Shown here one piece after another: positions 11,611-57,254 of a stretch of 64,000 bases of DNA. Positions within the stretch are counted from its first letter, which is position 1. Each line of letters begins with the position of its first letter. Position numbers and translations under genes: made by a program. The notes beneath the pieces are model-generated. The model had not been told where the DNA came from and did not search any database. It saw only the letters and a list, made by a program, of their open reading frames with translations. The stretch is taken from positions 20,578 through 84,577 of the forward strand of contig CAJVYS010000001.1 in the NCBI GenBank assembly GCA_913009875.1. The letters are read 5' to 3'. The DNA comes from an uncultured Gammaproteobacteria bacterium. GTDB taxonomy: Bacteria > Pseudomonadota > Gammaproteobacteria > SZUA-152.

Positions 11611-11614
11611 CGAA

Positions 11615-19950: not shown

Positions 19951-20072
19951 GTAGGGTGGGCACTTTAATTTAGAAAAGTAGGTTGGGGTGAACGTTTTTT
20001 GTGAACCCCAACATGCGGAGTGACGCCCGACCTCCGAGGTGACGTTGGGGTTCGTTCCTCACCCCAACCTAC
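19951..20072. repeat. Half family B REP (19951-19963) followed by family C REPIN (19978-20072)
   Basis: GTAGGGTGGGCAC then GTAGGTTGGGGTGA...TCACCCCAACCTAC. Confidence 0.8.
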
Positions 20073-38995: not shown

Positions 38996-39074
38996 TCACC
39001 CCGTACCAATAATATCGATTTATAGATTTTTTCTTCACCAGCCCTGCGGACACCTGCATTTATCGAGACACTCA

Positions 39075-42656: not shown

Positions 42657-42674
42657 TAGCAACATCCAGGCCAT
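42657..42674 (-). promoter_or_regulatory. Putative sigma54 promoter for the bd-like operon
   Basis: Minus strand ATGGCCTGGATGTTGCTA = GG-N10-GC with TTGC. Confidence 0.6.
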
Positions 42675-42995: not shown

Positions 42996-43012
42996 TTGGT
43001 ACGGCTTCTGCT
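42996..43012 (+). promoter_or_regulatory. Putative sigma54 promoter for the HEAT/USP/radical SAM operon
   Basis: TTGGTACGGCTTCTGCT, close to YTGGCACGRNNNTTGCW. Confidence 0.65.
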
Positions 43013-43128
43013 ATCCACAAGCTAACGCGATGTGAAACAGCGTCCTGAAACCGGAACACATGCACTTTCTATCTTCATGGGATATCAACGTGACCAGTAT
43101 TCAAAAACCAACGGATTCAAAACGAGAT

Positions 43129-45597
43129 ATGGCTGACAAACAAGACGCAGTGCAAGCCCTCCGCAGGCTGCTCAGCAAGGGCGATGAACTGGATCGTTGT
43201 TGCGCCTGCCGCTCCCTCGGCGTACTGGGGAGCCGTGATGCCGTACAGGCACTGGTCAAACATCTGCGCGATGACGATATCGATGTGTGTATCGATGCCG
43301 CTGAATCCCTGGGACTGCTGGATGATCCGACCGCCGTCGCACCCTTGATCGAATCCTTGCACAATGACTCCGATGGTGAAATCAGGGTCTCCGTCGTCGA
43401 GGCACTGGGACGCCTGGGTGGAGAACAGGCCACGTCAGCGCTGCTGTCACTGCTGACATCCGTGCCGGAAGATACCGACTGGGACGATGATGATGCCTGG
43501 GACAGCAACTGGGACGTCCAGCGCAAGGCCGTGCAGGCATTGGGTTACCTGCATGTCGCCGAGGCCGTTGCCCCCCTCACCACGCTGCTGGACGAAGAAG
43601 ACGCCCTGGTCGACGAAACCGACGTCCTGCTGGCCCTGGCGCGGATTGGTGATGCCGGTGAAGACATCGTCATCCAACGCCTGCAGAACGGCACGACACG
43701 TGAACGCCGGCGTGCGGCCCATGCCTTGGGCCAACCCTGCTCCCCCACCGGCGCCCGTGCCCTGGGTCGCGCCTTGCGAGATCCGGAACCGGAAGTCCGC
43801 GCCGTCGCCGCCGAAGCGCTCGCCAATAATGGCCAGGGCCGCTACCTGGGCGCCCTGCTCCTGCTGTTGCGTGATCCCGCCGACGAAGTGCGCGAAATCG
43901 CCCTGAAGATGGCCAGCAAGCTCAGTTCACAGGTCAATGCCGAACTCGATGTACAACAGCTGTTGCCCCTGTTGGGCGATCCCAGTGCCAGGGTGCGCGC
44001 CGCCGCGCTGCACGCCTTGCAGGGACACTTGCCCGACCCGCTTGATGCCGAAACCCGGGCACGCCTGGTCGGCTTGCTGAGCGATTCCGAGCCCATGGTT
44101 GCCACCGCCGCCCTCCCTCACGCTCCCCGTCTGGAGGATCCGGACGTCGATGCTATCCTGCTCGGTCTGCTGGCCGATGAACAACGGGATCCCGCCGTTC
44201 GACAGCAGGCCGCACTGGCCCTGGGCAATCGCCCACAAACCTCAGAGGAAGTGCTCACGGTCCTGGACAACGCGATCAATGACCATGAACCTGTGGTGCG
44301 CTGGGCGGCATTACAGGCCCTGATGGCCTGTCATAAAAAACAGCCCGATACGACCACTTCCGATGCAGCCCCCGACACAGCACTTGATACAGCTCTCGAT
44401 ACAGTTTTTGATACAGAGAAAGAGAAGCCCGCTGAAGCAGAAGACGAGCCCGCCGCCCCGCTGGCCCGCATTCTCGCCGCATTGCATGGCGAAGCGGGCA
44501 TGGTCACAACAACGCTTGCATCTGCCGAAAGCAGCAGCGGAGACGATCCAATCCCCGAGTCAACGGACGAGACTTCCGTCGACGTTTCTGACGCCCAAGA
44601 AGAAACCGATGCATCAAGCATCAATGAGACCGCACCGGCATCGACCCTCGACGCCATCATGCTGGCCAATACAGAATACGAGCAACTCGACGAAAAGAAA
44701 AAAACCATCACCACGGATGTACTGCCCGAACTGCCAGCCGAGGAAACCGAAGCCTTCCAGGACTTCTATGACATCCTCGCCCGGCAGCGGCATAACAAGA
44801 AAAAGTTCTACCGTGGCAAGAATATCGATATCGAGGCCGATATCCGCCTGCTCAGCGCCCGCGTCCTCGGCGAGTGCAGCCAGCCCGAGGTGGTCGAGGT
44901 ACTGAAAAAGACCATGCTTGAGGATAACCCCGAACTCCAGCAGGAAGCCGTTGACGCCCTCGCACGCCTGGTGCCGGGTACCCCCGGGTTGACAGAAACA
45001 CTGGGACCACTGAACAGCCTTCTGCATATGGGGGCATCCGAACTACGGGTCGCCAGCGCACGCGCACTGGGCGCCCTCGGCAACCTGCCCTGCCTGCCCA
45101 ATCTGCAGGAAAGCCTGCAGGATGAAAATCCTCTGGTACGCAGTCAATCGGTCATGGCCATAGCGCAGATACTGGAACGACACGCCGGCAAGCTGTCATG
45201 GGAACAGCACGCCGACACGCATACCGCCATCCCCGTCGCCAGCGCACGGGCACAAGAAGAGGCCGATACCATCGAACAGACATTGCACGCCCTGTCCGAA
45301 CATCTGGCCGACAGTGATGTGGGCGTCAGCAAGGCCGCCGCTCTGTCGCTGGCAAAACTAAACCCGCTTCTGCCCGGCGGCAAGACCCGTGATGACATCA
45401 TTGAGCGTCTTATTACCGCCGGCTTTGTCGGCGAGGGACGGCAAGCGCGGGAGATGGGCCAGGCCTTACGCGCCCTTGACCCCGGCATGGCCAGCGACAC
45501 ACTGATACACCACCTGGATACCTTGCCATCGAGTATGGAACGACGATTTGTGCTGGAAATGCTGGAAGAAGTCTTCCGCCCATCACAGGCCGCATAG
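43129..45597 (+). CDS. HEAT / PBS-lyase-like repeat protein
   Basis: Many D....VR..A..ALG.L repeats, acidic low-complexity middle; likely start MADKQD. Confidence 0.85.
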   Translation: MADKQDAVQALRRLLSKGDELDRCCACRSLGVLGSRDAVQALVKHLRDDDIDVCIDAAESLGLLDDPTAVAPLIESLHNDSDGEIRVSVVEALGRLGGEQATSALLSLLTSVPEDTDWDDDDAWDSNWDVQRKAVQALGYLHVAEAVAPLTTLLDEEDALVDETDVLLALARIGDAGEDIVIQRLQNGTTRERRRAAHALGQPCSPTGARALGRALRDPEPEVRAVAAEALANNGQGRYLGALLLLLRDPADEVREIALKMASKLSSQVNAELDVQQLLPLLGDPSARVRAAALHALQGHLPDPLDAETRARLVGLLSDSEPMVATAALPHAPRLEDPDVDAILLGLLADEQRDPAVRQQAALALGNRPQTSEEVLTVLDNAINDHEPVVRWAALQALMACHKKQPDTTTSDAAPDTALDTALDTVFDTEKEKPAEAEDEPAAPLARILAALHGEAGMVTTTLASAESSSGDDPIPESTDETSVDVSDAQEETDASSINETAPASTLDAIMLANTEYEQLDEKKKTITTDVLPELPAEETEAFQDFYDILARQRHNKKKFYRGKNIDIEADIRLLSARVLGECSQPEVVEVLKKTMLEDNPELQQEAVDALARLVPGTPGLTETLGPLNSLLHMGASELRVASARALGALGNLPCLPNLQESLQDENPLVRSQSVMAIAQILERHAGKLSWEQHADTHTAIPVASARAQEEADTIEQTLHALSEHLADSDVGVSKAAALSLAKLNPLLPGGKTRDDIIERLITAGFVGEGRQAREMGQALRALDPGMASDTLIHHLDTLPSSMERRFVLEMLEEVFRPSQAA

Positions 45598-45691
45598 CGA
45601 CCCGGGACAGTCAACCCTGATAACGAAAATCCTGAATAAATAGCAAACCCCTCAACAACCCTGAAACAGAGCAAGCTGAAAGGAGCCACAC

Positions 45692-46426
45692 ATGAATAAG
45701 GCACTCACGGTATTTACCCTATTTGCAGCAGCCAGTCTTCCGTTAACGGCCGCAGCCTACAAGGTCGTGGATGTTGCCAACGGCGGCACCATCACTGGAA
45801 AAGTGAATTTTTCGGGAACCGACCCGGCGCCAAAAATCTACGCCATCACCAAGGACACCGATGCCTGCGGTACCGGTGATCGTGAAATTGATTTTGTCCG
45901 CGTCACCAATGGCGCCCTCAATGACACCGTGGTCTATCTGAAAAAGGTAAAATCCGGCAAGGATTTTTCGGCCGACATCAATAACCTCGAGGTCAACCAG
46001 AAGAAATGCGGCTTCATTCCCTTCCTGTCGGTGATGAAAAACAAAGACAAATTAGCGGTGCACAACTCAGACCCGGTGCTGCACAATATCCATACCTACG
46101 AACTTATCGGTAAGGCGAGAAAGACCGTCTTCAACATCAGTCAGCCACCGGAACTCACCGTCATCAAGAAGACCGTCAAGCTCAAGCGTGGCGCTGCCAT
46201 GAAGCTGGAGTGTGATGCCCACGACTTCATGCACGGTTATGTCTTCGTGGCCAAAAACCCCTACTTTGCCGTCGTTAAAGAGGACGGCAGCTTCGTCATC
46301 GACAATGTCCCCCCCGGCAACTACAAGATTGCCGCCTGGCACGGTCTCCTGGGCGAACAAAAGGGCAAGGTCACGGTGGATGCCGGCGGCAAGACCTCCA
46401 TCGATTTCACATTCAAGGGCAGATAA
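45692..46426 (+). CDS. Secreted cupredoxin-like protein with carboxypeptidase-regulatory-like domains
   Basis: Sec signal; HNIH ... CDAHDFM fits a type-1 Cu His/Cys/His/Met set. Confidence 0.7.
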   Translation: MNKALTVFTLFAAASLPLTAAAYKVVDVANGGTITGKVNFSGTDPAPKIYAITKDTDACGTGDREIDFVRVTNGALNDTVVYLKKVKSGKDFSADINNLEVNQKKCGFIPFLSVMKNKDKLAVHNSDPVLHNIHTYELIGKARKTVFNISQPPELTVIKKTVKLKRGAAMKLECDAHDFMHGYVFVAKNPYFAVVKEDGSFVIDNVPPGNYKIAAWHGLLGEQKGKVTVDAGGKTSIDFTFKGR

Positions 46427-46546: not shown

Positions 46547-46678
46547 ATGGCAAGCTACCGACTTCCCTTCCTGGGCCGGCGTCAGGCCACTGGTTTTGAC
46601 TATCTGGCACTGGTCGGTTTCTCAATCAACATGGCCGTGGTCGCAGTGATTGTCGCCCACTGGCTATCAAACCCATGA
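46547..46678 (+). CDS. 43-aa single-TM small protein (not in ORF track)
   Basis: MASYRLPFLGRRQATGFDYLALVGFSINMAVVAVIVAHWLSNP; GAGGA upstream. Confidence 0.55.
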   Translation: MASYRLPFLGRRQATGFDYLALVGFSINMAVVAVIVAHWLSNP

Positions 46679-46885: not shown

Positions 46886-49123
46886 ATGAATACGATGAAT
46901 GCACAACTGCAAACCCGCGTTAAACCCAGCACAGAAGAACAAGGGCCACTGCCGCTTCCCGAGTACCACCACATTCTGCTGGCGGTGGACTCATCGGATC
47001 ACTCCAACCGCAGTCTGCAGGATGCCGTGCAACTGGCCGGCCTGTGGAACGCCGACATCACCGGCGCCCACGTCTACGCCGCCAAACTGCACGATGTGCG
47101 TTTCCGCCAAATGGAAGGTGGGCTACCCGAGCAATTCCGCGAAGAAGATGAACTGGAAAGACAGCGCGATGTGCACGATGACCTCATCACCCGCGGGCTG
47201 TCCATTATTACCGACTCTTACCTGGATCATTCCGAACGGCAATGCCAGACGGCAAACCTGACCTTCAAACGCTGCAGCCTGGAAGGCAAGAATTACCGGG
47301 AACTGGCGGCTGAAACCAATAATGGCCAATATGATTTATTGGTTCTGGGCGCACTGGGCTTGGGCGCCGTACAAGGCAGCCGCGTGGGTACCGTGTGTCT
47401 GCGTGTGGTACGTCGCAGCAATATCGACACCCTGGTCATCAAGGAGCCCGGCCGTTCCATCACTGACGGGCCGATCGTGGTGGCCGTTGATGGCTCCAGC
47501 CGGGCCTATGGTGGATTGCTGACGGCATTAGCGCTGGGGGAACAATGGCAGGTGCCGGTCAAGGTCATCGCCGCCTTCGACCCCTACTATCACTACGTTG
47601 CCTTCAATCGCATTGCCGATGTGCTCTCGGAAGAGGCTGGAAAGGTGTTTCGTTTTCAGGAGCAGGAAAAGCTTCACGAGGAAATCATCGACTCGGGTCT
47701 GGCAAAAATTTATCAGGGTCATCTGGAGATTGCCGAGAGCATCGCCCGCGACCACGGCTTCGAGCACGGCTTTGAAACCAAACTTCTGGATGGCAAACCT
47801 CACGACGCCATCGAGAAATACCTCAAAGAGGTGAACCCTTCTCTGCTGGTAATCGGCAAGCTGGGCATCCATGCCGACGCCGATCTCGACATCGGCGGCA
47901 ATACCGAAAACCTGCTCCACAACACCGGCTGCGCGCTGCTAATCAGTCAGCGGGAATTCCAGCCGCGAGTGGAAGTCATTGCCGAATCCACCACCTCCTG
48001 GACCACCCAGGCGGAAGAACGCATGGCCAGGGTACCCGAGTTTGTGCAGGGCATGGCGAAGATGGCTATTCTGCGTTATGCCCAGGAACGCGGTCATACC
48101 GTCATTACCGAAAGCATTGTCGAAGAAGCCACCGCACAGCTATGCCCCGGCCACGCCAAAGAGGCCATGGCGGATATCGTCGCCGCCCACGACGCTGGCG
48201 AGCTGGCGAGAAAACCCATCGAAGAGCTGGTCATGCGCTGGTCGGACGATGCCACGGCGCGCCTGTTGACCATCGACGATTTGCCGCTGCGCGGCAACCT
48301 CAGCATGCGGGCGGAGAAAAAGGCCCGGGTCGAGGGTGCTGAGCGAGTGGAGCTGGTACATATCGCGGCCTTCCTCGATATGCCTGAGCTGGTGAAAGAC
48401 ACCAACCCGCCTCCCGTCGAGGAAACAGTGGCAGCCGAGCCCCGGGCCGACGAGGCACTGAACTGGAACGCCGCCGCCCTTGCCCGCCTGATGCGGGTGC
48501 CCGAAGGCTTCATGCGTGATGCCTGTAAGCAACGGGTCGAAGAATACGCGCACGAAACAGGCGAAACCGACATTACCCTGTCGGTAGCCGAAGCCGGCCT
48601 GCAACGGGCGCGCGAGACGATGATGGCGCAGATGAAGGCCGAACCCGGCAGTGTCCCCGAGGCCGTCGCCAACGCCAAGCCCGGCACCTGCCCGTTCGGC
48701 CACAGCGCCACGGAAGAAACCGCCGAGGACAGCGCCACCCCCTGGAGCGAAGAGGCGAAACAGCGTCTGCAAAAGGTGCCCGAAGGCTTCATGCGCGACC
48801 TCACCCGCCAGCGCATCGAGGCCTATGCGCAGCGCAACGGGATGACGGAAATCACCCCGCAGCTGATCGCCGAGAAATACCGCGAATGGGGCGATGGCTC
48901 GGAAAAACTGCAGCGCCAGCTCGACTGGAGCGACGAGGCCCTGCAGCGCATCGAGCGTATCCCTGACTTCGTGCGCGGCATGGTGGTGAAGGAAGTGGAA
49001 CGTTGCGCCCGCGAGCAGGGCATCGACACGGTCACTCCGGCATCCCTCAGCAAGGCCATGGGCCGCTGGGAGGACATGGGCCAGTTCCATTCCGAGTCCA
49101 ACCCCGATCTCTATAAAGGCTGA
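46886..49123 (+). CDS. Tandem universal stress protein domains fused to five PCP_red-like modules
   Basis: ILLAVDSS..S and IVVAVDGSS USP starts; repeats W...A..R...VP..F.R......E..A...G. Confidence 0.8.
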   Translation: MNTMNAQLQTRVKPSTEEQGPLPLPEYHHILLAVDSSDHSNRSLQDAVQLAGLWNADITGAHVYAAKLHDVRFRQMEGGLPEQFREEDELERQRDVHDDLITRGLSIITDSYLDHSERQCQTANLTFKRCSLEGKNYRELAAETNNGQYDLLVLGALGLGAVQGSRVGTVCLRVVRRSNIDTLVIKEPGRSITDGPIVVAVDGSSRAYGGLLTALALGEQWQVPVKVIAAFDPYYHYVAFNRIADVLSEEAGKVFRFQEQEKLHEEIIDSGLAKIYQGHLEIAESIARDHGFEHGFETKLLDGKPHDAIEKYLKEVNPSLLVIGKLGIHADADLDIGGNTENLLHNTGCALLISQREFQPRVEVIAESTTSWTTQAEERMARVPEFVQGMAKMAILRYAQERGHTVITESIVEEATAQLCPGHAKEAMADIVAAHDAGELARKPIEELVMRWSDDATARLLTIDDLPLRGNLSMRAEKKARVEGAERVELVHIAAFLDMPELVKDTNPPPVEETVAAEPRADEALNWNAAALARLMRVPEGFMRDACKQRVEEYAHETGETDITLSVAEAGLQRARETMMAQMKAEPGSVPEAVANAKPGTCPFGHSATEETAEDSATPWSEEAKQRLQKVPEGFMRDLTRQRIEAYAQRNGMTEITPQLIAEKYREWGDGSEKLQRQLDWSDEALQRIERIPDFVRGMVVKEVERCAREQGIDTVTPASLSKAMGRWEDMGQFHSESNPDLYKG

Positions 49124-49127
49124 CACG

Positions 49128-51149
49128 ATGTCCGACAACGACCTCTTCCTGCTGGCCATCAACCTGACCCGGCGTTGCAATCTGGCCTGTGACCACTGTT
49201 ATCTCGACGCCAACACCCTGCAAAATGGCAGCCCCGACGAACTGAGCCGCGAAGAGGTCTGCCACCTGCTCGATGACATCGCCGCGCGCGGCACCGATGT
49301 GATGGTCGTACTCACCGGCGGCGAACCGCTGATACGCCCCGATCTGGAGCTTCTCATCAACCATGGTAGTCGCCTCGGCCTGTCCATGGTGGTGGGTACC
49401 AATGGCGTCATGCTCACCGACAAACGTGTGCAATCGCTCAAGCTCGCCGGCGCCCTGGGCATGGGTATCAGTGTCGATTCACTCGATCCCCACCAACACG
49501 ATCAATTCCGCGGCCGCAGCGGCGCCTGGGAAAAAACCCTGGCCGGTATCGAGGCCTGCCGCCGTCACGACCTGCCCTTCCAGGTGCACTTCTCCGTCAC
49601 CGAGGCCAACGCCAACGAGGTGCCGGCGATGATCGACTTCGCCCGTGCCAGCGGCGCACGGGTGTTGAACATCTTCTTTCTGGTCTGCACCGGGCGCGGC
49701 GAATCCATGTCCGACATCAGCCCCATCACCTATGAGCGAGTATTGAATCAACTGGTGGCGGCGCAGAGCGAAAACCACGAGCTGATGATCCGCGCCCGTT
49801 GTGCGCCACACTTCAAGCGCATCGCCTATGAACAGGATCCCCAGTCCCCCCTCACCCGGGCCGAGGGCTACGAGGGCGGCGGCTGTCTGGCGGGCATTCA
49901 TTACTGCCGGATTACTCCCGAGGGCGATATCACCGCCTGCCCCTATATTCCCGACAGCGAGGGCAATATCCGCGAAACCCCCTTCTGGCAGACCTGGGAA
50001 GAGTCACCGACCTTCGCCTCGTTGCGTGATCCCTCGTTGAAGGACAAGTGCGGCCAGTGCGAATACCAGAAACTGTGCGGCGGCTGCCGCGCCCGGCCGC
50101 TGGCAATGGGTGGCAACCTCATGGACACCGACCCCTGGTGCAGCTACCTGCCGCAGGGCGGCAAGGTAATCCAACCATTAGTAGAGACCCCCTCGACCAT
50201 CACCTGGTCGCCGGAGGCCGAACAACGCCTGCAGCGCATCCCCTCCTTCCTGCGCAAGATGGTGAAGAAGCGCACCGAGGCCCATGTGCAGGAGTTGGGT
50301 GAACAGCAGGTCACCGTGGCGCACATGTCCACCCTGGCCGCCAAGCGTTTCGGCGATGCCGGACCGCTGGGCATGCCCGATCAGGCCGCCGCCAAATCCC
50401 CCTTCGACGAGGCTAGCAAGGAACTGCCCTGGAGTCAGGAGGCGCGTGAGCGTCTGGCCGGCATGCCGGCCTTTTTGGCCGAGGGCGTGCGCGCCGTGGC
50501 CGAGGACGTGGCCCGCGCCGAGGGTCGTCTGGAGGTCAACATCAAGCTGCTGGACCGGCTGGAGGCCGAGGACCGGCAGGTGCGCCGGTTCGACTGGTCC
50601 AGCGAGGCCGAGGCTGCAGTGGAGGAATGCTTGGCCGACAAGCCCCCCCAGGTGCGCATGTTTGTCGCCCCGGCGCTGGAGGCCGAGGCCGAGCAGATCA
50701 CCAAGAAACGTCGTGCGACCACGGTGGCAGCAGAGGACGTGCAGCAGGCCATGGCCGTCTTCACCGGTGGCGTGGAATGGTCCGATGAGGCCGCCAAACG
50801 GGTCGCCAGTGCCCCTGATTTTGTCCGTGCCGGTATCAAAAAGGCGGCTGAGTTCAACGCCCGCCGGGAAGGTTTGGATGTCATCGGATCCACCGACCTC
50901 ACACGATTCCGCAATCGCGCCATGATGCGCGCGGTGCAGCGCATGAAGGGCTTCGGCATGACCGAACTGAGCTTTGACGCCTTCGATATCGCCAAGGTCA
51001 AGGTGCCGCGCCTGAAGGAAAACCCGGAGGCGGTAAAGCGCTTCAGCAGCATCCGCGAGTTTGTCGATGCACGCGAACACCCCGGAGAACTGCTGGGGCA
51101 GGAGCTGCTGGCGGAGATGAAAGAAAAGTTGAAAGGTAATGTTAAATGA
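49128..51149 (+). CDS. Radical SAM/SPASM protein (AhbC/AhbD/NirJ-like) fused to four PCP_red-like modules
   Basis: CNLACDHC, LTGGEPL; SPASM C..G..YC.ITPEG...C...C..C.Y..LCGGCRAR...DPWC. Confidence 0.85.
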   Translation: MSDNDLFLLAINLTRRCNLACDHCYLDANTLQNGSPDELSREEVCHLLDDIAARGTDVMVVLTGGEPLIRPDLELLINHGSRLGLSMVVGTNGVMLTDKRVQSLKLAGALGMGISVDSLDPHQHDQFRGRSGAWEKTLAGIEACRRHDLPFQVHFSVTEANANEVPAMIDFARASGARVLNIFFLVCTGRGESMSDISPITYERVLNQLVAAQSENHELMIRARCAPHFKRIAYEQDPQSPLTRAEGYEGGGCLAGIHYCRITPEGDITACPYIPDSEGNIRETPFWQTWEESPTFASLRDPSLKDKCGQCEYQKLCGGCRARPLAMGGNLMDTDPWCSYLPQGGKVIQPLVETPSTITWSPEAEQRLQRIPSFLRKMVKKRTEAHVQELGEQQVTVAHMSTLAAKRFGDAGPLGMPDQAAAKSPFDEASKELPWSQEARERLAGMPAFLAEGVRAVAEDVARAEGRLEVNIKLLDRLEAEDRQVRRFDWSSEAEAAVEECLADKPPQVRMFVAPALEAEAEQITKKRRATTVAAEDVQQAMAVFTGGVEWSDEAAKRVASAPDFVRAGIKKAAEFNARREGLDVIGSTDLTRFRNRAMMRAVQRMKGFGMTELSFDAFDIAKVKVPRLKENPEAVKRFSSIREFVDAREHPGELLGQELLAEMKEKLKGNVK

Positions 51150-51157
51150 ATATGCCG

Positions 51158-51241
51158 GTAGGTTGGGGTGAGGTACGAACCCCAACAGCGGCAGTTTGCC
51201 AAAACCTCGATTGTTGGGGTTCGTACCTCACCCCAACCTAC
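51158..51241. repeat. REPIN, family C, inside the operon
   Basis: Perfect 30-bp inverted repeat between radical SAM gene and hemY. Confidence 0.9.
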
Positions 51242-51256
51242 AACTAGAAGTAAAAC

Positions 51257-52675
51257 ATGACCGACACAGACGTACTCATCATCGGCGGTGGAATCTCCGG
51301 CCTCGCCACGGCTTGGTGGCTGGCCCAGGCGGGTGTCTCTGTGCAGGTGTGGGAGGCCGACAAGCGCATCGGCGGCAAGATAAAGAGCCGCCAGCAGGAT
51401 GGCTACCTCACCGAGCAGGCCGCCTCGCTATTGATGAATTTTCGCCCGGAAGTCGCGCAACTGGTGCACGCAGCGGGGCTGGACGAGGTCAAGACCCGGC
51501 GCATCTCCCAGGCCCAGGCACGACGCTATCTCCTCCACCGTGGCCAACTACAGGCCTTGCCGATGCGAATCGGCGGCATGTTGACCTCGCCCCTGTGGAG
51601 TCTGCGCGGCAAATTACGCCTGATGCTGGAGCCCTTCATCCCCGCCGGTAGCCACGATGACGAATCCGTCAGCCAGTTCATCCGCCGGCGGCTGGGCAAT
51701 GAAATGCTGGAAAAGGCCATGGAACCCTTTGTCGCCGGCACCCTGTCGGCAGACCCGGATCTGGCCAGCGCCGGCGCCACTCTGCCCCGTCTGACCACAC
51801 TGGAACGCCACTTCGGCTCCATCACCGCCGGTGTGGTGGCGCATAAACTGCTGCGCCGCCGCACCGCTTGCAGCACCGATACCTTTTCCTTCCGCGGTGG
51901 CATGAGCACACTGGCCAATACCCTGGCATGCACACCCGGCCTGCAGATCCTCTCCAACCGTCGCGTGCAGGAAGTGGCGCCCTGCCGGAATGGCTGGCGT
52001 GTCACTGCGGCAACCCCGGACGGAGAACGCAGCCTCACCGCCACACACGTCATCATGGCCACACCGGCACCGGCGGCGGCAAACCTGCTGGCATCGGTGG
52101 ACAAAACCCTGGCATCGCTACTGGATGAAATCCGCTATGCGCCACTGGCGGTGTTACACATGGGGCTGGAACGCGCAGATATCGAACACCCACTGGACGG
52201 CACCGGCTTCCTCACGCCACGATGCGAGCAGCAACCCTTTTCCGGCAATCTGTGGATGAGCAGCCTGTTTGCGGATCGCGCCCCGCAAGACAAGGCCCTG
52301 CTCACCACCTACCTTGGCGGTGCCCGCCAACCCGAGGCCGCCGCCTGGAGTGACGCCCGCCTGGTCGACGAGAGCCTGCGTGCGCTGACACCGCTGCTGG
52401 GACTGAAGGGCAGTCCTGTGATGGTGCGCATCGATCGCCACGCCCAGGCCCTGCCCCTCTACCATGGTGCCCATATGGCGCGGGACCGGAGTATCAGCCA
52501 GCAACTGCGCGCCTTGCCCGGTCTGCATGTCGAAGCCAATTATCGGGGTGGTGTATCCGTACGTGATCGCATTGCCCGTGGCCGCTCATTGGCGCGCCAC
52601 ATCTGCACACAATTGCAGACAAATACGCGGGGCCTGTCAGCGGATACCCTGATTTCACTGCCCGCGAATCGTTAA
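51257..52675 (+). CDS. hemY: FAD-dependent protoporphyrinogen/coproporphyrinogen oxidase (HemY type)
   Basis: IIGGGISGL, EA..RIGG.I, RRRLG.E......PFVAG..S.DP, FRGGM..L, GTGFL.P, LPLYH. Confidence 0.85.
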   Translation: MTDTDVLIIGGGISGLATAWWLAQAGVSVQVWEADKRIGGKIKSRQQDGYLTEQAASLLMNFRPEVAQLVHAAGLDEVKTRRISQAQARRYLLHRGQLQALPMRIGGMLTSPLWSLRGKLRLMLEPFIPAGSHDDESVSQFIRRRLGNEMLEKAMEPFVAGTLSADPDLASAGATLPRLTTLERHFGSITAGVVAHKLLRRRTACSTDTFSFRGGMSTLANTLACTPGLQILSNRRVQEVAPCRNGWRVTAATPDGERSLTATHVIMATPAPAAANLLASVDKTLASLLDEIRYAPLAVLHMGLERADIEHPLDGTGFLTPRCEQQPFSGNLWMSSLFADRAPQDKALLTTYLGGARQPEAAAWSDARLVDESLRALTPLLGLKGSPVMVRIDRHAQALPLYHGAHMARDRSISQQLRALPGLHVEANYRGGVSVRDRIARGRSLARHICTQLQTNTRGLSADTLISLPANR

Positions 52676-52796
52676 TCGTCAAAACCGCCAGCAGGGTATT
52701 GCGGGCGTTGCGGATCTTGCCAATAGCCTCCACTATTGGCGGCAATGCCGGCTGGTACCGGCATCGATCAGAAACCCATTGATGGAGAACCGAAGC

Positions 52797-53132
52797 ATGG
52801 CCATACCGAAACAGGCCAACCTCCCGCAACCCGCCGCACCCTATCTTTTTCTGCGTGTTACCGGGGCGGTATTATTGATCATGCTGCTGATTTCGGTATG
52901 GGCTAGGTGGTACGGTCAGCAGGTCTCCCTGCCGCGTTACTGCGAGGATCCGCAGGGCACAGTGCAACACCTCGAAAAGGTATTGGTGGAAAAACGTCCT
53001 GCCGGCGATGAGGCGCGCCGCCCCTACATTATTGCCGCCAAGATACTCTTTCTTTTACCGCGTCATCCGGAAGAAGGACAGACGGCCTATCTCACTCGCA
53101 TCCGCACCCACATCCAGGATACCTGCCGGTGA
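52797..53132 (+). CDS. Small membrane-anchored hypothetical protein
   Basis: One TM, periplasmic part with two Cys; stop overlaps kinase start (GTGA). Confidence 0.6.
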   Translation: MAIPKQANLPQPAAPYLFLRVTGAVLLIMLLISVWARWYGQQVSLPRYCEDPQGTVQHLEKVLVEKRPAGDEARRPYIIAAKILFLLPRHPEEGQTAYLTRIRTHIQDTCR

Positions 53133-55723
53133 ACACGAGCATTCAGAGTCGTGATCGCCCCCCCGCCCTGAGCGGACGCTTTCTGCTGATCTTTCTACCC
53201 CTGAGCACCCTGCTGGTCGCCATCGGCGTCAGTCATTACTACGCCGAGATGCGGCTGGCACGGGTCAGTCTGGAAAGCAATGAAATACAAAACGTGGCAC
53301 TGGCACAAAAAGGAATTACCAGTGAGATGCGCGCCGTCATCTCCGACCTCACCTTCCTCGCCAAACTCAATGAACTCTGGGGCCTTTTGGATGACCCCAA
53401 CAATAACTCCGCGCGCCAGAACCTGTCGCAGGAATTTCTCTACTTCAGCGAGAAAAAAGGTATCTATGACCAGATCCGTTTTTTGTCGGCGGACGGCATG
53501 GAAATCATCCGCATTAATTACAACCAGGGTCAGCCGCACATCGTTGGGCAAGATCAATTACAAAACAAGGGTGATCGATATTACTTTAAAGAGGCCATGG
53601 CACAAGACATCGGTGGCGTCTATATGTCACCTTTCGACTTGAATGTCGAAGATGGGCAAGTTGAAAACCCCTTTCGGCCGGTGATTCGCTTCGCCACTCC
53701 TCTGTTCAATAGTCAGGGAGAAAAAAAAGGCGTGTTGATGTTCAACTTCCGTGGTGAACGACTGCTGCAGAGTTTTCATCTGGCCGCCCCCAATATCGAT
53801 GATCACCTCAACCTCATTGATACCAAAGGCTACTGGCTCAGCGGCCCCCGCCCGGAAGACGAATGGGGGTTCTTTATGGGACGAAAACGTTCATTTGCTG
53901 AAACCTTTCCCGCTGCCTGGCAACGGATATTGAACGAAAACAGTGGCGGCTTCGTCACGGAAGAAGGCTTGTTCACCTTTTCCACCATCTACCCCATGGT
54001 CTCGGTCATGGAATTTTATGCCAATGCCGGTATGGGGTCGATCTCCTCAATCTTCGATGGCTATCAGGACACCAACCCCCGTTTTTGGAAAACCGTTTCA
54101 CATGTTCCAACCTCAATTCTGAATACCGCTTCGCAAAACTTTTTTCGCCAAAATCTCTTGCTCTATTCACTGGCGGGTCTTTTTTTACTGGCAGGATCCT
54201 TTATCGTTGCCCAGGCAGGCATTCGCAAACAACTCGAAGAGGCGCAAAGAAGCTTTGAACGCCGCTACCGTGACACACTGAAAAACATGCAATTGTCGGC
54301 AGTCACCCTGGATGCGGAGGGTCTTATTACCTTCTGCAATGATTGCCTTCTTAAATTGACAGGTTGGCGGCGAGAAGAAGTTATCGGGAAAAACTGGTTT
54401 GATCTTTTTGTGACACCACAGGATCGGCAACAGGCACATACTTCCTTTGCGGAAATTATCAACGGCAATGCCTCGCCACACACGATTGAAAGCCATATTG
54501 CGACGAAGTCCGGCGAGACATTACTCTTTTCCTGGGCCTCCACTCTCTCTTTCAGCCGTCTTGGAAAAATATCCACACTGACCAGCATTGGCCAGGACAT
54601 TACCCTGCAGAACGAGCATGAAGAACGCCTGCGAAAATTGTCCCGAGCCGTCGAGCAAAGTCGAAACTCGGTGATGATTACCGACATCGACGGTCATATT
54701 GAATATGTCAATCCGCGCTTTAGCGAGGTGACGGGCTACAGCGCCGAAGAAGTGACTGGCAAGACACCGAGACTCTTCAAATCCGGAGAGACCAGCGACA
54801 CGGATTATGACCAACTCTGGAAAACCATCATCCAGGGCAATGAATGGCGTGGTGTGTTCCACAATCGCAAGAAAAACGGTGAGTTCTATTGGGAAGATAC
54901 CCTGATCTCCCCCATACGCAATGAACAGGGTGAAATCACCCATTTTCTCGCCATCAAGGAAGACATCACTGAGCATGTGCGGCTAAAAGAGGAGGTAGAA
55001 GAACGCAACCGGGAACTGGCAAAAAACCAGACACTGACAGCCATGGGACGAATGGCCACCATGATTGCTCATGATCTGCGCAACCCGCTTTCCTCCATCA
55101 AGATGACCTTGCAGATATGGGGAAAGCGTGCCGAGGGGGACTGGGGTGAAGAGGCTGCAGAGATGAAACAAATCTCACTGGATCAGGTACGCTACATGGA
55201 AACCATTCTCGCCGACCTGTTGACCTTTGCTCGCCCCGACGCCCTGAGTCCGGAGTGGCTGGATGTAAAAAAGCTGCTCACCAGTGCCATCAATACCACA
55301 CAAAAGGAGCTACAAGAACGCGGCGCCAGGATCACCGTGGACTACCAGCCACAGCTACCGACGGTACATGGCGATGCCACCAAATTACGGCAGGCATTCA
55401 GTAACCTGATCACAAACGCCCTGGACGCTACCGACGACGTAAACCACGTTCCGCAAATCCGCATCCGCGCCTTAATGGAGGTTAATGACGCGACACCGGC
55501 AATTCGCATTGATATCTGCGACAACGGTGGCGGTATCGAGCCGGGGCTGAATGGCAAGTTGTTTGAGCCATTCTTCACCACTCGCGCCAAGGGCACGGGT
55601 CTGGGCCTGCCCATTGTCAAGCGCATCCTCGACCAGCATCATAGCCAGATCAGCTTGCACGCAAACAAGAGTGGCGGCACCTGTGCCAGTGTCACCTTAC
55701 CGATAGGACCCATTGAGTCATGA
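53129..55723 (+). CDS. Sensor histidine kinase (periplasmic Cache-like, 2 PAS, HisKA, HATPase)
   Basis: Two TM, YDQIRFL..DG.E.IR, PAS repeats, AHDLRNPL, NLITNA, DNGGG, FFTTR.KGTGLGL. Confidence 0.93.
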   Translation: MNTSIQSRDRPPALSGRFLLIFLPLSTLLVAIGVSHYYAEMRLARVSLESNEIQNVALAQKGITSEMRAVISDLTFLAKLNELWGLLDDPNNNSARQNLSQEFLYFSEKKGIYDQIRFLSADGMEIIRINYNQGQPHIVGQDQLQNKGDRYYFKEAMAQDIGGVYMSPFDLNVEDGQVENPFRPVIRFATPLFNSQGEKKGVLMFNFRGERLLQSFHLAAPNIDDHLNLIDTKGYWLSGPRPEDEWGFFMGRKRSFAETFPAAWQRILNENSGGFVTEEGLFTFSTIYPMVSVMEFYANAGMGSISSIFDGYQDTNPRFWKTVSHVPTSILNTASQNFFRQNLLLYSLAGLFLLAGSFIVAQAGIRKQLEEAQRSFERRYRDTLKNMQLSAVTLDAEGLITFCNDCLLKLTGWRREEVIGKNWFDLFVTPQDRQQAHTSFAEIINGNASPHTIESHIATKSGETLLFSWASTLSFSRLGKISTLTSIGQDITLQNEHEERLRKLSRAVEQSRNSVMITDIDGHIEYVNPRFSEVTGYSAEEVTGKTPRLFKSGETSDTDYDQLWKTIIQGNEWRGVFHNRKKNGEFYWEDTLISPIRNEQGEITHFLAIKEDITEHVRLKEEVEERNRELAKNQTLTAMGRMATMIAHDLRNPLSSIKMTLQIWGKRAEGDWGEEAAEMKQISLDQVRYMETILADLLTFARPDALSPEWLDVKKLLTSAINTTQKELQERGARITVDYQPQLPTVHGDATKLRQAFSNLITNALDATDDVNHVPQIRIRALMEVNDATPAIRIDICDNGGGIEPGLNGKLFEPFFTTRAKGTGLGLPIVKRILDQHHSQISLHANKSGGTCASVTLPIGPIES

Positions 55724-57183
55724 ACACGGCGATGAAAGATTTGAGTTCCATAACGGGTACAGAAGACAGGATGTCCATGAGTAAAGGACATATATTAATC
55801 GTTGACGACGATGTCGCCAGCTGCAGAACGCTACAGCTGCATCTGCGCAGTGAAGGCTATGATGTCGACATGGCCCATAGTGTCGACGAAGGATTAGCCG
55901 CGGCTCATGTTCGGCGTCCCGACCTGCTTATTCTCGACATCCGCATGCCGGGCAAGTCCGGCCTGGAAGGACTGCCCGAATTCAAGCAAACCTTCTCCGC
56001 CCTCCACATCATCATGATTACCGCATTCCATGACATGGACAGTACGATCCAGGCCATGCAAAACGGTGCCGAAGACTATATCCACAAGCCCATCGATATC
56101 GATGAGCTGGACAGCACCATCTCTCAGATTCTGGCCCCCGAAGCTCAATCGACGGTGAAAGCAGATCACAATGAACCCATCACTGACGGCAACACCATGG
56201 TGGGTCGTTCACGTGCCATGAAAGAGGTGTTCAAAACCATTGGCCTGGTTGCGTCCAGCCCGGTAACGGTATTGATCACCGGCGAATCCGGCACCGGCAA
56301 GGAACTGGTGGCCCGGGCCACCCACCGTGCAGGACAGAGAGCCGGTGGTGCCTTTGTCGCCATTAATTGCGCAGCGCTGGTCGAAAACCTTCTGGAATCA
56401 GACATGTTCGGCCATGAAAAGGGATCCTTCACCGGTGCAGTGAGCCGTCAATCCGGTAAATTTGAGCAGGCCAACCACGGCAGCATCTTCCTCGACGAAA
56501 TTGGCGAGCTTTCCCTCACCATGCAGGCCAAATTATTACGCGTGCTGCAAGAAAAGGAATTTACCCCGATTGGCGCCAAGACCCCCCAGCGAACCAATGC
56601 CCGTGTTATTGCCGCTACCAATGTGAATCTGGCTGAGCGTGTACGCGAAGGAAGGTTTCGCGAAGACCTGTACTACCGCTTGCGGGTAGTGACCATTCAT
56701 CTGCCGCCACTGCGCGAGCGCCGCGAAGATATCGAAGATCTGGTGCAGACCCTGATTTCGCGCATCAACCAACAAATGCATGCCGGCGTTAAACAGATCT
56801 CCGCCGATGTTATGGAGTGCCTGAAAAAATACGACTGGCCAGGCAACGTTCGCGAATTGTCCAATACGCTGGAAAAGGCGATAGCCCTCTGCCCGGGCTC
56901 GGTCATCACCCGCAATCTGATATCAGATATTTGTAGTTGTGGTACACCCATGGCCGATAGCGACCATCGCCCGCTGACGGAATTAAGCCTGGAAGAAATT
57001 GAAGGTGCTCATGTAAAACGGGTGCTGGAGGCAACCCGCTGGCACAAGGGGCGCGCCTGCGACATCCTCGGCGTCTCCCGGCCACGCCTGCGACGCATGA
57101 TCAAACACTTCGGGCTGACACCACCTGACGGCACGGAAGAGGATGATGATCACGGAGATGAAAATGCGGTATCCCACGACTAG
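55720..57183 (+). CDS. Sigma54-dependent response regulator (REC-AAA-HTH)
   Basis: ILIVDDD, LDIRMPG, GESGTGKE, ESDMFGHEKGSFTGA, WPGNVREL, Fis-type HTH. Confidence 0.95.
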   Translation: MNTAMKDLSSITGTEDRMSMSKGHILIVDDDVASCRTLQLHLRSEGYDVDMAHSVDEGLAAAHVRRPDLLILDIRMPGKSGLEGLPEFKQTFSALHIIMITAFHDMDSTIQAMQNGAEDYIHKPIDIDELDSTISQILAPEAQSTVKADHNEPITDGNTMVGRSRAMKEVFKTIGLVASSPVTVLITGESGTGKELVARATHRAGQRAGGAFVAINCAALVENLLESDMFGHEKGSFTGAVSRQSGKFEQANHGSIFLDEIGELSLTMQAKLLRVLQEKEFTPIGAKTPQRTNARVIAATNVNLAERVREGRFREDLYYRLRVVTIHLPPLRERREDIEDLVQTLISRINQQMHAGVKQISADVMECLKKYDWPGNVRELSNTLEKAIALCPGSVITRNLISDICSCGTPMADSDHRPLTELSLEEIEGAHVKRVLEATRWHKGRACDILGVSRPRLRRMIKHFGLTPPDGTEEDDDHGDENAVSHD

Positions 57184-57254
57184 GAAAATTCGCTTCACCG
57201 CCACCCAGTGAGCACGCTCATTGCACTTATTGCTTGCAGCAAAGAAGGTAGACT

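What the first reader, a model, noticed from the sequence alone, without database searches (positions are those of the whole stretch)
49128..52675. Island-borne HemY plus Ahb/NirJ-like radical SAM: possible dedicated or modified heme route
Seen: adjacent rSAM/SPASM and HemY-type oxidase in an island encoding 10 CXXCH motifs in the idr and bd-like operons plus b-type sites. Established: AhbD/NirJ-type enzymes decarboxylate or trim tetrapyrrole side chains; HemY oxidises copro- or protoporphyrinogen. Inference: an O2-independent heme b supply, or a new prosthetic group for the bd-like protein.
Basis: inference. Interest (0 to 1): 0.65.

Follow-up and report, generated by a model that had tools for sequence, protein, structure and literature searches.

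The report
Haem-enzyme cassette beside bd-like oxidase
Two adjacent genes, a radical-SAM enzyme closely related to the last enzyme of anaerobic haem synthesis and a HemY-type porphyrinogen oxidase, belong to a widespread but undescribed three-gene cassette. The cassette travels with an uncharacterised 'cytochrome bd-like' respiratory gene cluster rather than with the iodate-reductase genes, and probably makes or tailors that complex's haem.

Summary
ORF 49128-51149 encodes a radical SAM/SPASM enzyme carrying four BchB-tail (PCP_red) modules. ORF 51257-52675 encodes a HemY-family flavoprotein. The rSAM scores best against NirJ2 and AhbD models (311 and 297 bits) but stays below their 500-bit cut-offs. 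In a tree, all 49 PCP_red-bearing relatives sit on one branch (SH-aLRT 99), apart from 85 of the 90 core-only AhbD/NirJ2-like proteins; five core-only rows fall on the same side.

In 78 species-level loci (L007-L085, one duplicate):
- The rSAM nearly always follows a Usp-PCP_red partner gene.
- In Proteobacteria it is translationally coupled to HemY (median gap -1 nt).
- It usually lies beside a bd-like CydA / cytochrome c / EB_dh operon.
- Loci from Gemmatimonadota, Acidobacteriota and Chloroflexota keep the rSAM, its partner and the bd-like operon but lack HemY.
- idr is an occasional neighbour, not a requirement.

HemY carries PgoX signature residues (R95, L332; no CgoX Arg364), but the PgoX-conserved Phe329 is always replaced.

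The best reading is a client-dedicated haem supply or tailoring cassette. The substrate, the product and the order of steps are inferred, not shown. I found no paper describing it. A new prosthetic group remains possible, at about 20%.

The parts
46886..49123 (+). Usp-Usp + PCP_red array partner protein (745 aa), first gene of the conserved cassette
   Evidence: Pfam gives Usp (2 stretches) and PCP_red (4 stretches, 174.6 bits). Its stop codon lies 4 nt before the rSAM start codon. A homologue is present in 76 of the loci examined.
49128..50162 (+). Radical SAM + SPASM catalytic core of the 673-aa enzyme (residues 1-345), AhbD/NirJ2 clade
   Evidence: Scores NirJ2 310.7 and AhbD 296.7 bits. 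C17/C21/C24 (CX3CX2C) and eight further Cys (C225, C253, C271, C308, C311, C317, C320, C338) are invariant in 70 sequences; C144 and C187 are 90% or more conserved and C260 is invariant only in the 12-sequence alignment A1. In the AF2 model pLDDT is mostly above 85 over the core, with dips below 50 at residues 22-25 and 245-251. Foldseek best matches are PqqE, SkfB, SuiB and anSME.
50199..50951 (+). Four PCP_red (BchB C-terminal-like) helical modules of the same protein (residues about 358-411, 433-482, 488-546 and 549-608), followed by a conserved helical tail to 51146
   Evidence: Pfam PCP_red and W-x-x-E-A starts at residues 360, 435, 490 and 551. PDB 2KRU, a BchB-type domain, matches residues 358-397. 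In the AF2 model, module 1 is confident next to the core and a disordered linker (408-430) leads to an all-helical domain. Module 1 is present in every family member, including the short 416-474 aa forms.
51158..51241 (.). REP-like perfect 30-nt inverted repeat inserted between the rSAM gene and hemY
   Evidence: The arms are 100% complementary. The arm sequence recurs at 8121-8146 and 20044-20069. In relatives the two genes overlap or abut.
51257..52675 (+). HemY-family FAD porphyrinogen oxidase (472 aa) with a PgoX-type signature and an altered pocket floor
   Evidence: TIGR00562 scores 257.4 bits against a 97.85 cut-off. PDB matches rank 1SEZ 203 bits, then 2IVD 194, then B. subtilis CgoX 3I6D 155. 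The position of Mx R95 is R and that of L332 is L in 61 of 61 cassette HemYs. The position of Bs R364 is T, S or A. The position of Mx F329 is T, L, S or A and never F.
43060..46426 (+). Upstream genes of the same + strand gene string: HEAT/PBS-lyase-like repeat protein (43060-45597) and CarboxypepD_reg-like protein (45692-46426)
   Evidence: Pfam and NCBIfam results. They co-occur with the cassette in 32 and 37 loci respectively.
36587..42085 (-). Divergent candidate client operon: bd-like CydA (40220-42085), trihaem cytochrome c (39075-40223) and trihaem c + EB_dh haem-b domain protein (36587-38995)
   Evidence: Pfam results. The bd-like gene lies within 10 kb of the cassette in 22 of 28 beta/gamma loci and 5 of 5 non-proteobacterial loci with full flanks.
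52779..58238 (+). Downstream regulatory and cofactor genes: a 117-aa single-TM protein, a PAS histidine kinase, a sigma-54 response regulator and MoaA
   Evidence: Pfam results. The histidine kinase, response regulator and orf117 are conserved after HemY in 30-37 loci.

Best explanation
The two genes are the catalytic pair of a conserved three-gene tetrapyrrole cassette. The cassette comprises the Usp-PCP_red partner (46886-49123), an AhbD-clade radical SAM/SPASM enzyme with PCP_red modules (49128-51149) and a HemY flavoprotein (51257-52675). It is an accessory of the cytochrome bd-like (OR-N2-type) / cytochrome c / EB_dh respiratory cluster, not of idr.

Proposed mechanism:
1. HemY draws a porphyrinogen from the host's main pathway and oxidises it to the porphyrin. 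The likely substrate is coproporphyrinogen III or a partly decarboxylated form.
2. A ferrochelatase encoded elsewhere in the genome inserts iron.
3. The rSAM enzyme uses SAM-derived radical chemistry to decarboxylate propionate side chains oxidatively, as AhbD does on coproheme. Its PCP_red modules, and those of the tightly coupled Usp partner, hold the tetrapyrrole and pass it on.
4. The output is a haem b-type cofactor delivered to the b-haem sites of the co-regulated membrane and periplasmic complex.

Shown here: the family and clade placement, the domain architecture, translational coupling, and synteny across phyla.
Inferred: the substrate, the order of steps, the iron-insertion step, the role of PCP_red, and the identity of the client.
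For: 1. The rSAM belongs to the tetrapyrrole branch. It scores NirJ2 311 and AhbD 297 bits, then NirJ 161 and AhbC 156, with PqqE at 121 and MftC at 109. Core-only relatives at 35-40% identity score as NirJ2/AhbD-type, and one passes the NirJ2 cut-off.
2. All 49 PCP_red-bearing sequences fall on one side of a branch with SH-aLRT 99. Only 5 'core-only' rows share that side, and 85 other AhbD/NirJ2-like representatives lie on the other.
3. HemY passes the curated porphyrinogen-oxidase model. It is coupled to the rSAM gene, with a median gap of -1 nt over 61 loci.
4. Synteny in loci with full flanks: the Usp-PCP_red gene is present in 28 of 28, HemY in 27 of 28 and the bd-like gene in 22 of 28 beta/gamma loci. 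The bd-like gene is present in 5 of 5 non-proteobacterial loci, where partner, rSAM and bd-like genes form one same-strand string.
5. HemY is in the cassette in all Proteobacteria, which mainly use the protoporphyrin-dependent pathway (PMC10740692); from memory, their usual protoporphyrinogen oxidase is HemG or HemJ. It is absent from the cassette in Chloroflexota, Acidobacteriota and Gemmatimonadota (0 of 10 loci by HMM search). Most Chloroflexi and Acidobacteria encode the coproporphyrin pathway, with its own HemY-type enzyme. This fits a need for HemY-type activity that HemG/HemJ do not supply.
6. Four neighbouring gene products carry tetrapyrrole-linked domains: PBS-lyase-type HEAT repeats, PCP_red, the AhbD-like core and HemY.
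7. A ferrochelatase gene lies within 10 kb of the cassette in 3 independent loci. About 0.4 would be expected by chance.
8. AhbD serving outside the siroheme pathway has a published precedent (PMC13564367).
Against: - No ferrochelatase belongs to the cassette. It is nearby in only 3 of about 78 loci.
- The HemY signature is PgoX-like (R95, L332, no CgoX Arg364). This argues against a simple coproporphyrinogen-oxidase reading.
- Proteobacterial hosts are expected to have a complete haem b pathway already, so a second route to the same product looks redundant. I could not check this because the genome search was shut.
- Alphaproteobacterial loci carry the cassette beside idr-like or other molybdoenzyme operons, or beside MoeA, with no bd-like gene within 10 kb (0 of 4 full-flank loci).
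- Four Gallionellaceae loci have the rSAM-HemY pair alone, in housekeeping surroundings.
- HemY needs O2, whereas radical SAM enzymes are O2-labile.
- There are no expression data. No RNA run was found.
Confidence: 0.5

Rival explanations
1. The cassette makes a previously unknown haem derivative that is the specific cofactor of bd-like/EB_dh complexes. Candidates are a haem with a different number or position of vinyl and propionate groups, such as a monovinyl-tripropionate 'harderohaem'-type product. The precedents would be ctaA/ctaB for haem a and nirJ for haem d1.
For: - The rSAM forms its own clade, below the AhbD and NirJ2 equivalog cut-offs, and has added PCP_red modules.
- All 61 cassette HemYs replace Phe329, which is strictly conserved in PgoX, with smaller residues while keeping R95 and L332. 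This gives a pocket intermediate between PgoX and CgoX.
- A second route to plain haem b would be redundant in Proteobacteria.
- The operon link to one uncharacterised oxidase family is tight.
Against: - No modified haem is known for bd-like or EB_dh proteins.
- The cassette also occurs without a bd-like neighbour (alphaproteobacterial loci and Gallionella pair-only loci).
- Nothing in the sequence specifies different chemistry.
Confidence: 0.2
2. The rSAM-HemY pair is simply an alternative terminal branch of general haem b synthesis. The AhbD-like enzyme acts as an O2-independent decarboxylase, on coproporphyrinogen before a PgoX-type HemY or on coproheme after it. The pair serves the whole cell, and its position next to respiratory operons reflects co-regulation only.
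For: - In Gallionellaceae (Ferrigenium straubiae, L011, L013, L031) the pair stands alone among housekeeping genes.
- HemY has PgoX signature residues. This fits the order rSAM (copro'gen to proto'gen), then HemY (proto'gen to protoporphyrin IX), then HemH.
- AhbD is known to have been recruited into coproporphyrin-pathway bacteria (PMC13564367).
Against: - In 5 of 5 full-flank non-proteobacterial loci the rSAM and its partner sit inside the bd-like operon.
- The pair is absent from most Proteobacteria and tracks the bd-like cluster.
- The extra PCP_red arrays and the Usp partner are not needed by known AhbD.
Confidence: 0.15
3. The rSAM-PCP_red protein and its Usp-PCP_red partner act as a haem chaperone or insertase rather than as a biosynthetic enzyme. 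The model is the HemN-like proteins HemW and CgdH2, which bind haem and hand it to target proteins. HemY would be an added supply step.
For: - A radical-SAM-family haem-synthesis paralogue that turned chaperone has a precedent: C. jejuni CgdH2 receives haem from ferrochelatase (PMC10320005).
- The repeated helical PCP_red modules in both proteins look like binding or docking modules. Modules 2-4 sit on a flexible linker.
- The link to a membrane haem protein complex is tight.
Against: - The CX3CX2C motif and eight further Cys of the SPASM region are invariant across 70 sequences from at least four phyla, which suggests retained catalysis.
- No invariant His, Cys or Met that could ligate haem is found in PCP_red module 1. 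Its invariant residues are W360, A364, P372 and F374.
Confidence: 0.1
4. The rSAM/SPASM enzyme modifies a peptide or a protein, for example its PCP_red partner or a subunit of the complex. HemY would be an unrelated neighbour.
For: - The closest solved folds are peptide or protein modifiers (PqqE, SkfB, SuiB, anSME). No AhbD structure exists in the PDB.
- Small ORFs lie nearby, such as the 43-aa ORF at 46547-46678.
Against: - HMM scores for peptide maturases are far lower than for AhbD/NirJ2.
- The coupling to a bona fide HemY is near-universal in Proteobacteria.
- No RRE domain and no conserved precursor-peptide gene appear in the clusters.
Confidence: 0.03

Closest known systems
AhbD / 'NirJ2' haem b synthase (TIGR04545 / TIGR04055): the radical SAM/SPASM coproheme decarboxylase of the siroheme-dependent pathway, also recruited by some coproporphyrin-pathway bacteria
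   Same: - It gives the best HMM matches (297-311 bits here, 277-341 across the family) over the whole 340-residue core.
- It shares the CX3CX2C motif and a Cys-rich SPASM region.
- The core is 35-40% identical to core-only NirJ2/AhbD-type proteins.
   Different: - The family scores below both 500-bit equivalog cut-offs.
- It forms a separate clade (SH-aLRT 99).
- It always carries one to four PCP_red modules and is paired with a Usp-PCP_red protein.
- It has no ahbABC or chdC/cpfC neighbours. It sits beside bd-like respiratory operons instead.
HemY-type protoporphyrinogen oxidase PgoX (Myxococcus xanthus 2IVD, tobacco 1SEZ)
   Same: - It passes TIGR00562.
- It has the FAD GxGxxG motif at the N-terminus.
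- R95 and L332 are conserved in 61 of 61 cassette HemYs.
- It has Thr, Ser or Ala where CgoX has Arg364.
- It scores higher against the PgoX structures than against B. subtilis CgoX.
   Different: - Phe329, described as strictly conserved in PgoX, is never Phe (T, L, S or A).
- Asn63 is mostly Ser, Gly or Ala.
- The gene is translationally coupled to an AhbD-like gene.
- It occurs in beta- and gammaproteobacteria, which (from memory) normally use HemG or HemJ.
Coproporphyrin-dependent terminal pathway (CgoX - CpfC - ChdC or AhbD)
   Same: It combines a HemY-type oxidase with an AhbD-type decarboxylase. HemY is missing from the cassette exactly in phyla that commonly have this pathway as housekeeping.
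   Different: - The cassette has no dedicated ferrochelatase.
- Its HemY lacks the CgoX Arg364 signature.
- The hosts are Proteobacteria.
- The cassette is tied to a respiratory operon.
Haem-tailoring genes encoded with their oxidase (ctaA/ctaB for haem a; nirJ and related genes for haem d1)
   Same: Tetrapyrrole-modifying enzymes are encoded next to the respiratory enzyme that uses the product.
   Different: No modified haem is known for bd-like/OR-N or EB_dh proteins, and the chemistry here is unknown.
HemW / CgdH2 (HemN-like radical-SAM-family haem chaperones)
   Same: A paralogue of an anaerobic haem-synthesis radical SAM enzyme is associated with delivery of haem to respiratory proteins (PMC10320005).
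   Different: The radical SAM lineage is different (HemN-like versus AhbD-like/SPASM). All cluster-binding Cys are retained here, and a HemY partner is present.

Membership tests
AhbD haem b synthase (TIGR04545) / NirJ2 (TIGR04055) | Whole-protein score at or above the curated equivalog cut-off (500 bits) | tested here: not met
   The window protein scores 296.7 and 310.7 bits. Relatives from four phyla score 277-341 bits.
AhbD haem b synthase (TIGR04545) / NirJ2 (TIGR04055) | Radical SAM CX3CX2C cluster motif plus a SPASM domain with Cys for auxiliary [4Fe-4S] clusters | tested here: met
   C17, C21 and C24 plus C225, C253, C271, C308, C311, C317, C320 and C338 are invariant in 70 sequences. 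Pfam finds Radical_SAM and SPASM.
AhbD haem b synthase (TIGR04545) / NirJ2 (TIGR04055) | Single-domain architecture of about 340 aa, with genomic context of ahbABC or coproporphyrin-pathway genes | tested here: not met
   The protein is 673 aa with four PCP_red modules. No ahb, chdC or cpfC genes recur among 78 loci.
AhbD haem b synthase (TIGR04545) / NirJ2 (TIGR04055) | SAM-dependent conversion of coproheme to protohaem | not testable with these tools
   This needs an anaerobic enzyme assay.
HemY family porphyrinogen oxidase (TIGR00562) | Score above the curated cut-off, with the N-terminal FAD dinucleotide-binding motif | tested here: met
   It scores 257.4 bits against 97.85. The motif is IIGGGISGL at residues 8-16.
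PgoX (protoporphyrinogen IX oxidase subclass) | Strictly conserved R95, F329 and L332 (M. xanthus numbering; PMC10740692) | tested here: inconclusive
   R95 is R in 61 of 61 and L332 is L in 61 of 61. F329 is T in the window protein and T, L, S or A across the family, never F.
CgoX (coproporphyrinogen III oxidase subclass) | Conserved Arg364 (B. subtilis numbering), and small residues at the positions of Mx R95, F329 and L332 | tested here: not met
   The Arg364 position is T, S or A and never R. R95 and L332 are retained, and only the F329 position is small. The PDB score to 3I6D is lower than to 1SEZ or 2IVD.
Peptide-modifying SPASM maturases (PqqE, MftC, sactisynthases) | Best similarity to those families, an RRE or peptide-binding domain, and an adjacent precursor peptide | tested here: not met
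   PqqE scores 121 and MftC 109 bits, against 311 for NirJ2. No RRE domain is found in Pfam. No conserved small precursor gene appears in the clusters.
Iodate reduction island (idrABP1P2) | Belongs to the conserved, horizontally transferred idrABP1P2 unit | tested here: not met
   The published island is idrABP1P2 only, with poorly conserved surroundings (PMC8692401). IdrA-like genes lie near the cassette in about 7 of 78 loci.
PCP_red domain (PF08369, BchB C-terminal domain) | Pfam match above the gathering score | tested here: met
   It scores 108.6 bits against 32.5, in 3 stretches. PDB 2KRU matches residues 358-397.

The most novel reading that the evidence does not exclude
The Usp-PCP_red / AhbD-clade rSAM-PCP_red cassette (plus a pocket-altered HemY in Proteobacteria) synthesises a hitherto unknown haem derivative. 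This derivative would be the dedicated cofactor of cytochrome bd-like (OR-N) and/or EB_dh-domain respiratory proteins. If so, a new terminal branch of haem biosynthesis is hidden in many phyla.
Probability: 0.2. Interest if true: 0.85.

Novelty: new variant of a known kind. Interest (0 to 1): 0.62.

Why it matters
A 2026 review states that the known PPD, CPD and AHB enzymes appear to cover haem synthesis in all known haem-synthesising organisms (PMC13564367). This cassette is a conserved, uncharacterised offshoot of two of those enzyme families.

The cassette is tied to the OR-N-type bd-like oxidases, whose function and cofactors are unknown (Murali et al.). Working it out could do three things:
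- Reveal how these complexes are matured, or reveal a new haem.
- Give the PCP_red domain a function outside chlorophyll synthesis.
- Provide a genetic handle on the bd-like complexes of iron oxidisers, sulfur-oxidising symbionts and iodate reducers.

One isolate genome carries the full set of genes (Aestuariirhabdus sp. LZHN29, L076), so genetics is feasible.

Tried and rejected
- **Whole-genome census.** A search of the host genome and relatives for hemN, hemF, hemG, hemJ, hemH and chdC was not possible. The genome search and the fetch from genomes were shut.
- **Expression data.** No RNA run holds the gene. Only marine and vent metagenome DNA runs hold related sequence.
- **Literature.** Searches for PF08369, for idr plus radical SAM, for bd-like plus radical SAM plus protoporphyrinogen oxidase, for Gallionellaceae plus bd-like, and for AhbD in Proteobacteria found no description of the cassette. 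The iodate-island paper does not mention these genes.
- **Sigma-54 promoters.** A strict consensus scan was not enriched and placed nothing in the intergenic regions. Only loose GG-N10-GC matches are seen by eye.
- **Structure search.** It returned generic SPASM enzymes. No AhbD structure exists to compare with.
- **EB_dh domain as the common client.** I tested whether EB_dh, rather than bd-like CydA, is the shared neighbour. EB_dh precedes the cassette in two alphaproteobacterial loci without a bd-like gene (L060, L072), but the idr-only loci have none. The test is unresolved.
- **Adjacent ferrochelatases.** The three match only the generic hemH model, so CpfC versus PpfC could not be told apart.
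- **Position of CgoX Phe227.** It could not be aligned unambiguously, so I did not use it.

Full report
**What is there.**

The interval holds two + strand ORFs: 49128-51149 (673 aa) and 51257-52675 (472 aa).

- The first ORF has Radical_SAM, SPASM and PCP_red domains.
- By motif it has four W-x-x-E-A modules, starting at residues 360, 435, 490 and 551.
- The second ORF is an Amino_oxidase/FAD protein. It passes the curated protoporphyrinogen-oxidase model TIGR00562 with 257 bits, against a cut-off of 98.

The two genes lie in a + strand gene string:

| Coordinates | Product |
|---|---|
| 43060-45597 | HEAT/PBS-lyase-like protein |
| 45692-46426 | CarboxypepD_reg-like protein |
| 46886-49123 | Usp-Usp + 4 PCP_red protein |
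| 49128-51149 | rSAM enzyme |
| 51257-52675 | HemY |
| 52779-53132 | 117-aa single-TM protein |
| 53129-55723 | PAS histidine kinase |
| 55720-57183 | sigma-54 response regulator |
| 57255-58238 | MoaA |

Divergent from this string lie the bd-like CydA, two trihaem c proteins (one with an EB_dh haem-b domain) and idrABP1P2.

The Usp-PCP_red stop codon is 4 nt from the rSAM start. The 107-nt gap before hemY is filled by a perfect 30-nt inverted repeat. Its arm recurs elsewhere in the window, so it is a REP-like insertion.

**Which radical SAM family.**

NCBIfam ranks the matches as follows:

| Model | Bits |
|---|---|
| NirJ2 | 311 |
| AhbD | 297 |
| TIGR04053 | 249 |
| NirJ | 161 |
| AhbC | 156 |
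| PqqE | 121 |
| MftC | 109 |

- The two top scores are below their 500-bit cut-offs. The same holds for relatives from Alphaproteobacteria, Gemmatimonadota, Dehalococcoidia and Vicinamibacterales, which score 277-341 bits.
- A full scan of 1.84 billion cluster representatives found 765 proteins at E <= 1e-30. PCP_red-bearing proteins match at about 34-63% identity. Core-only proteins of 325-380 aa match at 35-40%.
- Ten core-only proteins that I scanned all score best as NirJ2 or AhbD, and one passes the NirJ2 cut-off.
- In a 139-sequence tree of the core, all 49 PCP_red or cassette sequences lie on one side of a branch with SH-aLRT 99. Five 'core-only' rows share that side, at least one of them probably a truncated fragment. 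The other 85 lie on the other side.

That condition is not met. The enzyme is a distinct offshoot of the AhbD/NirJ2 radiation.

The AF2 model has a mean pLDDT of 81.7. It shows a confident core with module 1 attached, a disordered linker at residues 408-430, and then an all-helical domain. Foldseek finds only generic SPASM enzymes. No AhbD structure is in the PDB.

**Which HemY.**

PDB matches rank tobacco PPO (203 bits), then M. xanthus PgoX (194), then B. subtilis CgoX (155). I used the diagnostic positions of Zamocky et al. 2023 (PMC10740692) on 61 cassette HemYs:

| Diagnostic position | Residue in the 61 cassette HemYs | Points to |
|---|---|---|
| Mx R95 | R in 61 of 61 | PgoX |
| Mx L332 | L in 61 of 61 | PgoX |
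| Bs Arg364 (CgoX) | T, S or A, never R | PgoX |
| Mx F329 (strictly conserved in PgoX) | T, L, S or A, never F | CgoX-like small residue |

That paper says small residues at this last site open the cavity in CgoX. The enzyme is therefore PgoX-like with an altered pocket floor. The alphaproteobacterial cassette HemYs are only 31-36% identical to the window's HemY, yet they still pass TIGR00562.

**Where the genes travel.**

- More than 100 full-length homologues at 64-94% identity all share the rSAM + PCP_red architecture; Pfam's SPASM model also hits all but about nine of them. They come from Gallionellales, Nitrosomonadales, Thiothrix, Sulfuricellaceae and gammaproteobacterial MAGs.
- A scan of one genome per species gave 565 confirmed matches, and I analysed the best 79 loci.
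- Clustering their ORFs gave these numbers of loci per family: Usp-PCP_red 76, rSAM 73, HemY 63, EB_dh/cytochrome c 44, bd-like CydA 43, cytochrome c 40, CarboxypepD_reg 37, histidine kinase 37, HEAT 32, IdrA 7. No other haem-synthesis family recurred.

Counts in loci with at least 7 kb of flank on both sides:

| Group | Loci | Usp-PCP_red | HemY | bd-like | IdrA-like |
|---|---|---|---|---|---|
| Beta/Gammaproteobacteria | 28 | 28 | 27 | 22 | 2 |
| Alphaproteobacteria | 4 | 4 | 4 | 0 | 3 |
| Non-Proteobacteria | 5 | 4 | 0 | 5 | 0 |

- In Gemmatimonadota the order is Usp-PCP_red, rSAM, bd-like, cytochrome c, EB_dh and CarboxypepD_reg, all on one strand.
- An HMM search confirmed that HemY is absent from all 10 non-proteobacterial loci.
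- The rSAM-to-HemY gap has a median of -1 nt over 61 loci, and 37 of them overlap.
- Four Gallionellaceae loci have the rSAM-HemY pair alone.
- In two alphaproteobacterial loci the cassette follows an EB_dh gene. In L072 that gene is the gamma subunit of a type-II DMSO-reductase-like operon.
- A ferrochelatase lies within 10 kb in three loci.

**Interpretation.**

The pair belongs to a conserved cassette whose constant core is the Usp-PCP_red partner plus the AhbD-clade rSAM. HemY is added in Proteobacteria. idr is an occasional neighbour. The published iodate island is idrABP1P2 alone (PMC8692401), so 'island-borne' and the idr link are not supported.

Several results make a dedicated haem supply or tailoring role the best reading:
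- The association with bd-like/EB_dh operons is strong and crosses phyla.
- Four tetrapyrrole-linked domain families occur in one gene string.
- HemY is included in the cassette in the phylum that mainly uses the protoporphyrin-dependent pathway, which (from memory) normally runs on HemG or HemJ rather than HemY. It is omitted in phyla where the coproporphyrin pathway, with its own HemY-type enzyme, is common: 55% of Chloroflexi and 3 of 4 Acidobacteria (PMC10740692). I could not verify the pathway used by Gemmatimonadota.

Several points remain unexplained:
- The HemY signature is PgoX-like.
- The cassette has no ferrochelatase.
- A second haem b route would be redundant in Proteobacteria.
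- Some loci lack a bd-like neighbour.

An O2-using HemY next to an O2-labile rSAM fits microoxic operation. Alternatively HemY may use another acceptor, as reported for S. aureus CgoX under nitrate respiration (PMC13564367). 'O2-independent supply' is not an apt label. That the PCP_red domain contacts protochlorophyllide in BchB is my recollection of the DPOR structures. I did not verify it here; one search shows only that C-terminal tags on BchB disturb activity.

**Earlier notes of this scan.**

Three follow-up notes on other genomes describe the same cassette and the same reading. One note on this genome calls the CydA-like protein OR-N2-type. These are AI notes, not independent evidence. 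I reached the synteny and clade results from my own calls.

**Verdict.**

- This is a real, conserved and uncharacterised variant of known haem terminal enzymes in a new architecture and context.
- I found no paper describing it.
- The product (haem b or a new haem) and the client remain to be shown experimentally.

Noticed in passing
window 51158-51241 (copies at 8121-8146 and 20044-20069): A perfect 30-nt inverted repeat built from a REP-like element is inserted between the rSAM gene and hemY. In relatives these two genes overlap. It may act as an mRNA stabiliser or attenuator that uncouples the two genes in this genome.
   Followed up: partly
window 46547-46678: A 43-aa hydrophobic ORF lies between the CarboxypepD_reg gene and the Usp-PCP_red gene. 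A 44-aa gene is called at the same place in the 89%-identical relative L003.
   Followed up: no
window 42997-43012 (+) and 42659-42673 (-): Loose sigma-54-type GG-N10-GC elements (TGGTACGGCTTCTGCT, and TGGCCTGGATGTTGC on the - strand) face the HEAT-led string and the bd-like operon. This fits control by the sigma-54 regulator at 55720-57183. They are pattern matches only, and the strict consensus was not enriched.
   Followed up: partly
L055:5549-6589(-), L069:17226-18272(-), L033:21238-22026(+): Ferrochelatase (TIGR00109) genes lie next to the cassette in three unrelated genomes. In the Rhizobiaceae MAG L055 the gene is directly divergent from the HEAT / Usp-PCP_red / rSAM / HemY string.
   Followed up: partly
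L072:5-6601 and L060:1-534: In two alphaproteobacterial MAGs the cassette follows an EB_dh haem-b gene with no bd-like CydA nearby. In L072 this gene is the gamma subunit of a type-II DMSO-reductase-like alpha/beta/gamma operon. EB_dh proteins may therefore be the real common client.
   Followed up: partly
L035:5448-7205, L010:7735-8697 (also L005, L009, L040): Gallionellales clusters insert two genes between the EB_dh genes and the Usp-PCP_red gene. One is a 585-612 aa beta-propeller with YncE and nos_propeller matches, plus sub-threshold Cytochrom_D1 and cupredoxin hits. The other is a 320-aa cytochrome c.
   Followed up: no
L079:18080-19849 and the equivalent gene in L080, L083-L085: In Gemmatimonadota a haem-copper oxidase subunit I (COX1, 520 bits) lies just downstream of the string of partner, rSAM and bd-like genes.
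   Followed up: no
window 52779-53132: A conserved 117-aa protein with one N-terminal TM helix overlaps the histidine-kinase start codon by 4 nt. It is found after HemY in 30 loci and is probably an accessory of the sensor.
   Followed up: no
window 8000-12000: A low-GC segment (37-43% against about 58%) holds a DUF4041/T5orf172/MUG113 protein gene (8711-10345). It is probably a small mobile or defence insertion next to gyrA, unrelated to the cassette.
   Followed up: no
tblastn identities across the loci: The window's rSAM and HemY are closest to the Gallionellales type (about 69% and 61% identity). Its bd-like CydA is closest to the Sedimenticola type (about 80%, against 53-60% for Gallionellales). 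This hints that the cassette and its client operon have been recombined.
   Followed up: no
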